From Octopus vulgaris (taxonomy: Eukaryota), in the NCBI GenBank assembly GCA_951406725.2, contig OX597816.1, forward strand, positions 137,578,001-137,642,000: 64,000 nucleotides of DNA. The letters are read 5' to 3'. The notes below the pieces were generated by a model, which did not search any database, had not been told where the DNA came from, and saw only the letters and a program-made list of their open reading frames with translations. A program made the position numbers and the translations under genes. Below are positions 16,190 through 54,334 of the stretch, piece by piece; position 1 is the first letter of the stretch, and each line of letters opens with the position of its first letter.

Positions 16190-17340
16190 AAGATAATAAA
16201 CAGATTTGTTTTACAGGATTTAAGACTATTAAAGCCTTGATAATAATGATATTACACAATTTTGAACAAAATAAGGTTTTGTTCTTTCAACATAATTGAA
16301 GTAAAGACCGGTTTTGCATTACTCATCAAACTGAGAGTTGAAAGAGATAAATCGCTAGTGGGGAAAATATTGCTAGGGAAGATAATTGTTCACTCATTTA
16401 TTTTGCAGTAAATCTGTATTTTTTTTCTTTATTTTTTTGTGTTTTCTGCTTTATTCTGGCTTATATCTTCCATTAGATTGGGTAAGTACTTTATTTTTAA
16501 TATGGGTTCATATTTAATCCCAGTTTATATTTTTGGAAAAAAAAATATAAAGTTTTACTTGAGTTGAAGTCCAGAAGGCAAGTTGATTGAATGGCAAAAT
16601 TTCGGGTTGTGGTTGTAATCGTTCTGCACATTCGTCAATGTGTTGACTAGGTATATTTGGCGATATTGTGGGGAGGAAATTTGTTGTCCGTAATCTCTTT
16701 CGGATCGAATTCCTGTTGAGCCAATATAATTTCGATGGCAGCCCGAGCATCTGAGTAAATGAGGTTTTGGGAGGCGCAAGTGAAGTTAGATTTCATTTTG
16801 AATGTTTGTCTTTGTCTGAAATGAAATTCCGATCCTTCCAACAGATTGGGACATGTTCCGCAATTATGGCGACCACACTTTAGGACTCTTGCGTTCGCTG
16901 GTCTAGAAAATAGTTTGGCATTAGTGAGAATTTTCTCCAGTGTCTTAGGCTGTTTGCTGCTCTTAATGATTTTATGGCTACGTAGAATCTCCTTAAGTTT
17001 GGGCTCCCTATGGAGTATTGGAAGATTTTGGACGATGATATTGAATGCTTCTTTGTTTCTGGGATTGTATGTAGCGATATAAGGTAGTGCTTTGAGGGTA
17101 GATGTGCTCTTGTGTTTGGCTTTTGTTAATGTTTAATTATTAATCAATTTTGCACGTTTAATTCCCTCATTTATGAGTTGACTTGGGTAGTGCCTTCTGG
17201 AGTACATTTTTAAGCTCTTGCAATCTTAGTACTCTGGTATTTTTTTCGGATACTATGGTACAAATCCTTCTTGCAAGGTTGAAGTGGGTATTTGTTTTGA
17301 TATGTCTCAGGTGAAATGAGCTAAATAATAGATATTGCAC
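16190..17340 (-). mobile_element. Penelope-like element 3' fragment, Neptune-type (Cys linker, GIY-YIG, pLTR relic)
   Basis: Minus-strand translation YIATYNP..KCGRHNCGTCP..FTCASQNLIY / RCSGCHRNYIGSTG; degenerate HHR TTGATGAgtaatgcAAAAccggTC at about 16303-16332. Confidence 0.8.
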
Positions 17341-22692: not shown

Positions 22693-23173
22693 TTAGAAAA
22701 TTACTATTTGTAAATCTCACGACAGATATTCAGCAACAGTACTTTAGAGAAAAGATTGTTTGCCAACATAACATGGCAGTCCTGGTTTAGGACGAATGTT
22801 GCCGTAATTTAGCAAACAATCTTTACTCCAAAGTACTATTGCTGACTATCCCTCGTTGTGAGATTTACAAATAATACTTTTTTAATTTATAGATCACTTT
22901 GAAAACTATATATTTCGAACGAGAATTTGGAAGCGCCACCTCTATCCGAACAGAACAATTATTCTGTGCTGATGAAAGGAAATAACCCGGAAATCGCGAT
23001 ACACAGATATTGTTTTGAGCTGAGTGGGAGTGCTAGATTCCCTTGTTCGAAAATATAAGGATACAGATCGTGTTGTATAGCCAGCTGGAGACGATGTCTC
23101 CTGATGCTAAATTACAGCAACATACATCCTAAACCAGGACTGCCATGTTATGTTGGCAAACAATCTTTTATTC
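22693..23173 (+). mobile_element. Non-coding HHR-bearing insertion (PLE pLTR or retrozyme-like) with 13-bp target-site duplication
   Basis: cactatcaattca at 22680-22692 and 23174-23186; inverted segment 22693-22813; 344-bp unit bounded by gcaaacaatcttt. Confidence 0.75.
22963..23007 (+). ncRNA. Type I hammerhead ribozyme motif
   Basis: tctgtg-CTGATGA-aaggaaataacccg-GAAA-tcgcga-TA-cacaga: 6-bp stem I, palindromic stem III ATCGCGAT, weak stem II. Confidence 0.7.
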
Positions 23174-42699: not shown

Positions 42700-42746
<47 letters not shown>

Positions 42747-42748
<2 letters not shown>

Positions 42749-43096
42749 CGAAAAGAATCGTAAATGTGTATCAGTGAAGATTTGTGGTTATAGTCGCTTT
42801 TTAGCGTACTGGTGCTGCTTGTAGCCCCCTTAAATATTGATTATTAATTTTTTACCTTACAGTATTTTTTTACGCATGCTTGCAACTTGATCATGTTGTA
42901 AGCAATAATATCTTTATATATATATATATATAACGAAAAGAATCGTAAATGTGTATCAGTGAAGATTTGTGGTTATAGTCGCTTTTTAGCGTACTGGTGC
43001 TGCTTGTAGCCCCCTTAAATATTGATTATTAATTTTTTACCTTACAGTATTTTTTTACGCATGCTTGCAACTTGATCATGTTGTAAGCAATAATAT

Positions 43097-43100
<4 letters not shown>
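42747..43100. repeat. Tandem duplication of a 169-bp unit separated by (TA)n
   Basis: 42747-42915 reads identical to 42932-43100. Confidence 0.9.
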
Positions 43101-43166
<66 letters not shown>

Positions 43167-53157: not shown

Positions 53158-53440
53158 CAACCAGAGAGAGAGAGGAGAGAATTGATAGAAAGAAGACATA
53201 CACGCTCATTCAACTGCATACACGGACTATTATAAATATTCAAGTATATATCTCCGTAGACCTACTAAGAGAATATTACACACAGTCATACACACACACA
53301 TGCTGACGCACAAGCGCTCGCATGACACACACACACGTATATGTATATAGATATACATACATTATATGAATATAGTTACACATATATATATATATATATA
53401 GACATGCACGCTCGCACACACACTCTCTCTCATACACACA

Positions 53441-53498
<58 letters not shown>

Positions 53499-53666
53499 AT
53501 GGTTGTATACTGTCAATCTAACAAGAACGTGACAGTATAGGGTACACCACCGCTGTATAGCCCTAGGAAGCATCGAACGCCTCCTGATGGCTTTGACACA
53601 TTTTTCCCTGTGTCCTTATATACATTTACGAAGGGGAGACAAACACCCCCGGCTGCCAGAACTGCA

Positions 53667-53711
53667 TCTAGGGACACGTGTTTCAGGATCGTTGTCCTTC
53701 ATCGGCCTAGA
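53667..53711 (-). ncRNA. Type I hammerhead ribozyme (CCGAUGA core variant)
   Basis: tctagg-CCGATGA-agga(caacga)tcct-GAAA-cacgtg-TC-cctaga; all three stems pair. Confidence 0.8.
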
Positions 53712-53903
53712 GTAGCAGACACCGGTCAGCTGGTGATATTTGCCTCGACTTCGTATTTGTATATATTTGTATACATGTCTCTACGAGAGATTTAGAAATT
53801 CAATATTTCTTATTTTGATAATCAGTGAATAGACTTCACTGAATATAGATATATACAAATACGAAGTCGAGGCAAATATCACCAGCTGACCGGTGTCTGC
53901 TAC

Positions 53904-53948
53904 TCTAGACCGATGAAGGACAACGATCCTGAAACACGTGTCCCTAGA
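53904..53948 (+). ncRNA. Type I hammerhead ribozyme (second copy, stem I closing mismatch)
   Basis: tctaga-CCGATGA-agga(caacga)tcct-GAAA-cacgtg-TC-cctaga. Confidence 0.7.
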
Positions 53949-54334
53949 TGCAGTTCCGGCAGCCGGGGGTGTTTGTCTCCCCTTCGTAAATGTATATAAG
54001 GACACAGGGAAAAATGTGTCAAAGCCATCAGGAGGCGTTCGATGCTTCCTAGGGCTATACAGCGGTGGTGTACCCCCTACTGTCACTTTCTTGTTAGATT
54101 GACAGTATACAACCATTATATCGCCCCACCACCGTACATGTCTCTACGAGAGATTTAGAAATTCAATATTTCTTATATATATACGTGTGTGTGTATGTAT
54201 GTATATATATATATATATATATATGTTCATACTTCAGGAATGAGGAAAAAAGAACGCCACAAGTTTACCGAGATATATATGGAAGTTGAAAAACCCATGT
54301 GTAGATAAATTTCCTCATTTCTCTTGCCTTTCTC

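What the first reader, a model, noticed from the sequence alone, without database searches (positions are those of the whole stretch)
53498..54176. 363-nt terminally redundant unit plus 269-bp near-perfect inverted copy, each with a CCGAUGA-core hammerhead
Seen: a 42-bp direct repeat 363 bp apart and 269-bp inverted arms with few mismatches, implying a young insertion in (TA)n/(GA)n. The HHR has 6-bp stem I, 4-bp stem II, palindromic stem III (ACACGTGT) and a GUC site. Both copies have U4C in the core, so the variant predates this insertion. There is no RT-like ORF, and the sequence is unrelated to the 22.7-kb unit although the architecture matches. Known: palindromic short stem III favours dimeric HHR cleavage. 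Inference: a second, recently active retrozyme or pLTR-only family that would also form a long dsRNA hairpin.
Basis: partly seen in the sequence, partly recalled or inferred. Interest (0 to 1): 0.75.

Follow-up and report, generated by a model that had tools for sequence, protein, structure and literature searches.

The report
Penelope-pasted retrozyme with weakened hammerhead
This is one of several hundred young, scattered copies of a small protein-less jumping repeat whose self-cutting RNA motif carries the same unusual, likely weakening change in almost every copy, and whose insertion scars match those of Penelope-like jumping genes, which likely copy it.

Summary
There is an exact 42-bp repeat 363 bp apart, 269-bp inverted arms with 5 mismatches, and two CCGAUGA hammerheads. 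The + strand hammerhead has an A·C mismatch in stem I.

The locus is one insertion of a dispersed 361-365-nt non-coding family. U4C is family-wide: 417 CCGA versus 12 CUGA exact matches, the 12 being at CpG-decay level. Sister subfamilies (57-78% identical) keep U4 and show compensatory stem changes, so the fold is real.

Copies form partial tandems plus an inverted truncated arm, sit mostly in (TA)n, and end at two fixed points 55 nt apart. This is the Penelope 'tail' footprint. No RT ORF lay inside a unit in the loci examined, and the helper element is unidentified.

This locus cannot itself release a 363-nt monomer. The 22.7-kb unit is a distant relative, not unrelated. An ORF1-only LINE inserts 37 nt upstream of the core in other copies.

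Cleavage, circles and expression are untested. The scan has reported similar retrozymes and the LINE targeting elsewhere in this genome. Verdict: new variant of a known kind (non-LTR retrozyme / non-autonomous Penelope-like element).

The parts
53440..53497 (.). (TA)n/(GA)n microsatellite, left target flank
53498..53775 (-). inverted, 5'-truncated copy of the unit (unit positions 303 to about 26), starting at the short fixed 3' end (no tail)
53661..53719 (-). type I hammerhead, core CCGAUGA starting 53705, perfect 6-bp stem Ia, predicted cut after C at 53673
   Evidence: cleavage untested
53772..53813 (+). 42-bp partial tandem copy (unit 321-362), the pseudo-LTR
53815..54176 (+). full unit (positions 1-362; period 363 with the linker base 53814), ending at the long fixed 3' end
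53821..53826 (+). ATCAGT hexamer about 60 nt before the inferred start; same word lies at -57 to -61 of U2 genes here (possible snRNA-type promoter element, inferred)
   Evidence: a 36-nt matrix test was not significant
53844..53999 (+). predicted long imperfect stem (unit about 30-95 with 129-185) carrying the hammerhead at its tip
53875..53891 (+). site at which an ORF1-only LINE inserts in other copies (empty here); inferred transcription start region
53896..53954 (+). type I hammerhead, core CCGAUGA starting 53910, A.C mismatch at the first stem I pair, predicted cut after C at 53942
   Evidence: cleavage untested
54122..54176 (+). 55-nt tail between the two fixed 3' ends (unit 307 and 362)
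54174..54226 (.). (TA)n/(TG)n microsatellite, right target flank

Best explanation
The locus is one insertion of a dispersed, protein-less 363-nt hammerhead repeat (a non-LTR retrozyme) that is likely copied into AT-rich DNA by the RT-endonuclease of an autonomous Penelope-like element. Shown in DNA: several hundred copies, family-wide U4C, partial tandems, inverted arms, two fixed 3' ends and short target duplications. Inferred steps: (1) transcription from an internal promoter starting near unit position 66; (2) a longer-than-unit or circular template, because cDNAs run through the unit junction and the uncut hammerhead site; (3) the Penelope enzyme cuts both strands of (TA)n and primes at two internal RNA sites, 307 and 362; one priming gives a direct copy, priming from both cut ends gives the inverted two-armed form seen here; (4) the hammerhead is predicted to be weak and to work only as a dimer: U4C lowers activity and lets C3-C4-G5 pair with loop III in the monomer, while the palindrome forms an 8-bp stem III between two units. 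The 270-bp hairpin is a by-product of insertion.
For: Dispersed family: 114 matches from 40 scored of 2396 candidates; 417 exact core 18-mers and 491 exact tail 24-mers, reversed controls 0. Ends in 81 non-redundant loci: 33 of 48 scored inverted have one 307 and one 362 end and none has two of the same; 31 of 33 direct copies end at 307 or 362. 11-12-bp duplications in 3 of 12 junction pairs printed. Same anatomy described for PLEs (PMC8557442, passages); the tail equals the distance between two RT start sites and both strands are cut and extended (PMC11167929, parts 1-2). Intact RT+GIY-YIG elements exist in this genome (16 of 150 hits in 781-aa frames), end in (TA)n and show two 3' ends. One unit is fused directly behind the 3' end of such an element (L017). 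Arms of one locus differ 2.1% against 4.7% between loci. Stem Ia 95% paired, 4 of 6 pairs with double changes; C3-G8 to U3-A8 in 3 of 14 rows. Dimer favoured by about 10 kcal/mol.
Against: No autonomous element with sequence similarity to the unit among 42 PLE-containing loci, so the helper is unnamed. 15 of 48 inverted loci lack the 307/362 pair (truncated, nested or mis-called). The L017 fusion could be a simple insertion at an AT-rich end. Only 6 locus-private variants are shared across arms against 92 unshared, which does not prove a single RNA molecule. The conservation of the hammerhead between young and old U4C copies is not significant (1 of 51 against 17 of 295 positions, Fisher p=0.49). 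The promoter matrix test failed. The 10.1-11.1 pair is broken in 7 of 14 rows. Folding ignores tertiary contacts. No cleavage or expression data.
Confidence: 0.8

Rival explanations
1. Same mobilisation, but the U4C hammerhead is catalytically dead or dispensable. The family spreads from uncut read-through transcripts of dimer/multimer source loci and makes no RNA circle; the fold is kept as a structure or by descent.
For: U4C considerably lowers activity in vitro (PMC3088659, passage). The commoner variant (35 of 63 C4 motifs) has an extra G in loop III, giving a predicted 0.99 lock and no active dimer as the best fold. Hammerhead cleavage was not needed for insertion in vitro in an anole PLE. 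8 of 9 Xenopus retrozyme dimers did not cleave. 5' truncations do not pile up at the cut site.
Against: Between old and young U4C copies the only core change is the free position 7 and no stem position changed (0 of 38), though not significantly. U4C viroid variants stay infectious. Runs of more than two units with low within-locus divergence fit a circle.
Confidence: 0.35
2. The units are pseudo-LTR fragments of an autonomous Penelope-like element that I did not find (cis-mobilised, heavily 5'-truncated copies).
For: Only 30 of 150 scored GIY-YIG hits (6136 candidates) plus 12 extended regions were inspected; retrozymes are related to pLTRs in Xenopus.
Against: In family loci the unit's 5' end is joined to the 3' end of the previous unit with a 361-365-nt period; the only ORF found inside units is an inserted LINE ORF1.
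Confidence: 0.1
3. An APE-type LINE (L1/Tx1-like) mobilises the unit, and the inversion is L1-style twin priming.
For: Such LINEs are active here and associate with the unit.
Against: No poly(A) or shared LINE tail; two internal fixed ends with the inverted arm starting at the other end; the LINE is a passenger inserted into the unit with its own duplication.
Confidence: 0.04
4. The locus is a selected hairpin-RNA gene (siRNA or editing substrate).
For: A read-through transcript would fold into a 270-bp duplex (-563 kcal/mol).
Against: Inverted arms of variable length occur at dozens of loci as an insertion by-product; the arms have drifted by 5-6 mismatches.
Confidence: 0.03

Closest known systems
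Metazoan non-LTR retrozymes (PMC7229834: part 2, section 17 and passages read; mussel 350-390 bp; 10.64898/2026.07.22.740005: parts 1-3 of 5 read)
   Same: Non-coding 360-nt unit, GC below 50%, type I hammerhead with 6-bp helix I, 4-bp helix II and palindromic helix III, head-to-tail copies, stable predicted circle, larger-than-4-bp duplications, co-occurring PLEs.
   Different: Core is CCGAUGA in about 96% of exact matches; mostly 1-2-unit dispersed insertions, often with an inverted arm; two fixed 3' ends. Cleavage and circles not shown. The helper was only proposed in those papers.
EN+ Penelope-like elements and their pLTR/tail anatomy (PMC8557442 passages; PMC11167929 parts 1-2; PMC4209133 parts 1-2); non-autonomous Chlamys/MRC1
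   Same: Partial tandem, inverted 5'-truncated arm, tail at one end only, (TA)n targets, hammerhead in the repeat.
   Different: No RT-EN ORF; tail 55 nt rather than 30-40; canonical-size rather than minimal hammerhead; no 3' similarity to an autonomous family found.
Natural U4C hammerhead variant of a viroid (as cited in PMC3088659, passages; primary paper not seen)
   Same: U4C core change.
   Different: There a rare variant in an RNA replicon; here fixed in a genomic family of several hundred copies, including an older subfamily.
Transposon-targeting Tx1 LINEs (Tx1L in Tx1D, Tx1-Mar, Keno in U2; PMC4494074 passages) and ORF1-only HAL1 (recalled; search listing only)
   Same: A LINE-type element inserts at one position of another repeat, with duplication and tandem stacking.
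   Different: Target is a hammerhead retrozyme, 37 nt before the core; relatives land about 30 nt behind TATA boxes or just before U2. Not present at this locus; clade not tested by a tree.

Membership tests
Non-LTR retrozyme | Short (150-450 bp) non-coding unit in head-to-tail copies | tested here: met
   Period 361-365 nt in six loci with two sense hammerheads; no conserved ORF
Non-LTR retrozyme | Type I hammerhead in each unit with covarying stems | tested here: met
   related sequences, so the shuffle control overstates significance
Non-LTR retrozyme | Canonical CUGANGA core | tested here: not met
   417 CCGA against 12 CUGA; met in sister subfamilies B-D
Non-LTR retrozyme | Two complete same-strand hammerheads at the locus ('active' criterion of Li et al. 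2026) | tested here: not met
   One per strand at this locus; met at L005, L020, L022, L029, L060, L064
Non-LTR retrozyme | Self-cleavage in vitro | not testable with these tools
   Only folding predictions
Non-LTR retrozyme | Expression as linear and circular monomer RNA | not testable with these tools
   Only contigs of runs guessed to be RNA were available
Penelope-like element, non-autonomous | Partial tandem (pLTR) with optional inverted 5'-truncated copy | tested here: met
Penelope-like element, non-autonomous | Tail: two fixed 3' ends, extension at one end only | tested here: met
   33 of 48 inverted loci 307+362, none with two alike; 31 of 33 direct at 307 or 362; tail 55 nt
Penelope-like element, non-autonomous | Microsatellite / AT-rich target | tested here: met
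   Flanks printed; not counted against a background
Penelope-like element, non-autonomous | 3' similarity to an autonomous partner | tested here: inconclusive
   None in 42 PLE loci; search far from exhaustive
Penelope-like element, autonomous | RT + GIY-YIG ORF between pLTRs | tested here: not met
Rfam hammerhead families | Match to a curated covariance model | tested here: not met

The most novel reading that the evidence does not exclude
This retrozyme lineage evolved a self-locking hammerhead. U4C, then an extra G in loop III, let the catalytic core pair with its own loop in the monomer circle and free it only in dimers. That would supply the missing block that keeps animal retrozyme circles from re-cutting themselves. 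A Penelope dimer would then copy one such RNA from both cut DNA strands at two fixed start sites, while a LINE parasitises its promoter.
Probability: 0.2. Interest if true: 0.75.

Novelty: new variant of a known kind. Interest (0 to 1): 0.48.

Why it matters
The helper and copying route of animal retrozymes have been proposed rather than shown (PMC7229834 discussion; 2026 preprint). Here the insertion scars give two exact priming coordinates that an in vitro Penelope assay can test. A core change known to weaken hammerheads is fixed in a successful family, with natural U4, U3-A8 and extra-G relatives in the same genome. That is a ready-made series for asking whether cleavage is needed for spread and how circles avoid re-cutting. 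The LINE target site gives a candidate transcription start.

Tried and rejected
Rfam: only microsatellite or hairpin look-alikes below gathering scores.

Sequencing runs: no RNA holder listed. Contigs of three runs guessed to be RNA cover the unit from about 53880 (X5, X7) or wholly (X1), but the DNA-like run is also shallow at the 5' end, so there is no verdict on expression or start. Contigs of organisms B-E hold parts of the unit; no C>T row at 53911 was listed (one search hid 13 rows; none), which is weak.

Helper search: no similarity to 42 PLE loci beyond microsatellite matches and one distant retrozyme.

Antisense 120-codon frame: open in 2 of 6 units tested, rejected.

Editing imprint: 0 of 6 shared private variants are A>G; unshared A>G 6 and T>C 11 of 92; no support.

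Truncation at the cut site: no pile-up among 95 5' ends; the set is biased by selection on hammerheads.

U2-promoter matrix: not significant for the family (304 of 500 shuffles as high).

Hammerhead conservation test: p=0.49.

ORF1 identity: Pfam only zf-CCHC below cut-off; word-index search empty; 378 unnamed relatives; no Atlas result.

Literature: ten searches found no paper on a genomic U4C family, an octopus retrozyme or a LINE targeting retrozymes. The library lacks most subscription papers. The dimer-cleaving Penelope hammerhead paper (seen only as a citation) and the newt promoter paper (not held) were not read. No supplements were read, and core variants listed there could include U4C.

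Full report
1. Observation. The 42-bp exact repeat (53772-53813 / 54135-54176), the 269-bp inverted arms (53498-53766 / 53849-54117, 5 mismatches) and two CCGATGA hammerheads (cores at 53705 on the - strand, 53910 on the + strand) are present; a window-wide descriptor scan finds only these two. The + copy has an A.C mismatch at the first stem I pair. Both have a UAC/U bulge and a 4-bp distal stem. Rfam lists no hammerhead.

2. Family. The genome is 2.8 Gb in 227 contigs; earlier scan notes call it octopus-like, which I did not test. The unit gave 114 matches from 40 scored of 2396 candidates, the best 95-99% identical and spread over many contigs. Exact 18-mers: CCGATGA 417, CTGATGA 12, CCAATGA 4, controls 0. 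C4-G5 is a CpG, and the median decay at 16 CpGs of the unit is about 2% each way, so the 2.8% CUGA needs no separate lineage. An older subfamily keeps C4 while position 7 and loop II change. Sister subfamilies B-E, 57-78% identical to this one, have CUGA or U3-A8 cores, other palindromes in stem III and compensated stems. On 14 chosen rows stem Ia is 95% paired with double changes at 4 of 6 pairs; the covariation score is 0.39 against 0.20 shuffled (0 of 500) and 0.05-0.13 slid. The rows are related and two are misaligned in stem II; the 10.1-11.1 pair fails in 7 of 14. The 22.7-kb unit belongs to the same superfamily.

3. Insertion anatomy. In 81 non-redundant loci (57 of this family, 24 sisters; picked by best score or by motif, so not random) the 3' ends fall at unit 307 or 362. 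Of 48 loci scored inverted, 33 have one end of each kind and none has two alike; 15 have a truncated or mis-called end. Of 33 direct copies, 31 end at 307 or 362. Flanks are mostly (TA)n; 3 of 12 junction pairs printed show 11-12-bp duplications. This locus reads [303 to 26 inverted][321-362][1-362]. Partial tandems, inverted truncated arms, a one-sided tail and (TA)n targets are described for Penelope-like elements (PMC8557442, passages). In an anole element the tail is the stretch between two internal RT start sites, both DNA strands are cut and extended, and hammerhead cleavage is protein-assisted but not required for insertion in vitro (PMC11167929, parts 1-2). Arms of one locus differ by 2.1%, tandem units by 2.2%, different loci by 4.7%: a shared source per insertion, but circle and linear multimer are not told apart.

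4. Helper. The genome holds intact RT+GIY-YIG elements (16 of 150 hits in 781-aa frames). They have a cysteine linker of the kind described for Neptune/Nematis (no tree built), end in (TA)n and show short and long 3' ends. None of 42 such loci resembles the unit. In L017 a unit follows directly on the 3' end of a second such family (93-96% identity), a hint only.

5. Ribozyme. The unit folded as a circle gives -129 kcal/mol, z -10; six natural hammerhead-to-hammerhead monomers of 361-365 nt give z -6 to -9. Most of this is a long local stem, so it does not prove circularity. In the monomer, stem III is not predicted to form; position 4 pairs with loop III with probability 0.65-0.74 (C4) against 0.31-0.42 (U4), and 0.99 against 0.87 in the extra-G variant (35 of 63 C4 motifs). 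For the plain palindrome, the dimer with an 8-bp stem III is about 10 kcal/mol better than two monomers; for C4 with the extra G the active dimer is not the best fold. U4C is reported to lower activity considerably yet allow viroid infection (PMC3088659, passage). PMC7229834 (section 17) argues that metazoan circles need some block other than self-pairing. The lock is my inference from nearest-neighbour folding alone. This locus has one hammerhead per strand and cannot release a monomer.

6. A LINE parasite, absent at this locus. An insert of about 1.7 kb with one ORF1-like frame (weak CCHC knuckle) sits inside units. Of the 30 best ORF1 hits, 17 lie in this family, with 5' junctions at unit 70-82 and the 3' junction at 61; the other 13 have another 3' end and other targets. 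Of 30 fetched from 34 genome-wide 3' ends, 19 are followed by a retrozyme (core 37 nt away in 15), 5 by another LINE copy, 1 by a U2 gene and 5 by unidentified DNA. A TATA-like word lies 30-31 nt upstream in 4 of 5 non-retrozyme targets, background 7%. An autonomous APE+RT LINE with a 34%-identical ORF1 exists. U2 genes carry an ATCAGT-like word at -57 to -61 in 24 of 30 loci, and the unit has ATCAGT about 60 nt before position 67, but a matrix test failed. The newt hammerhead satellite is reported to use an snRNA promoter (cited in PMC2220036). The snRNA-promoter idea came from earlier scan notes.

7. Verdict. A real, young non-LTR retrozyme family with Penelope-type scars (0.8). It works like a non-autonomous Penelope element and meets the DNA-level retrozyme criteria except the canonical core; cleavage and circles are untested. 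The scan noted like families, one with CCGAUGA, and the LINE targeting elsewhere in this genome; those are unchecked notes, not independent support. New variant of a known kind, interest 0.48.

Noticed in passing
L149:5735-9183 (G000:C1), L152-L166, L168, L172: ORF1-only LINE of about 1.7 kb inserted at unit position 61, 37 nt before the hammerhead core, often stacked in tandem. Its 5' junction carries a C where the target copy often has T, suggesting a target-derived leader in the LINE RNA.
   Followed up: yes
L196/L220/L250; L231, L238, L239: A related ORF1-only element ends 6 nt before a full U2 snRNA gene (Rfam 158 bits); three more U2 loci have an AATAAAGA end just upstream.
   Followed up: partly
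L169, L171, L174, L176: Sister ORF1-only elements land 30-31 nt behind TATA-like boxes of unrelated sequences.
   Followed up: partly
L222:4538-9273: Autonomous two-ORF LINE (APE endonuclease, RT, zf-RVT) whose 3' end resembles that of the ORF1-only elements; likely helper.
   Followed up: partly
L145:4110-4490; L204, L205, L209: Further retrozyme subfamily of about 360 nt with a U3-A8 hammerhead core and a homologous tail, also hit by the LINE.
   Followed up: partly
L133:430-5709 and copies: Young 4.8-kb Penelope-like element with a 781-aa RT+GIY-YIG frame, U3-A8 minimal hammerhead-like motif, (TA)n target and a tail of about 35 nt.
   Followed up: partly
L017 / L150: Retrozyme unit (7-363) fused directly behind the 3' end of a second Penelope-like family (L142 type).
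   Followed up: partly
window 22750-23169: Degenerate distant member of the same retrozyme superfamily (core at 22969, stem II partly broken, 65-bp inverted arm).
   Followed up: partly
window 16597-17337 (- strand): Broken fragment of a Penelope-like RT/endonuclease ORF (tblastn E 4e-48).
   Followed up: no
window 42723-43117: Two 99%-identical 185-bp tandem copies between (TA)n runs; may be another microsatellite-targeted insertion.
   Followed up: no
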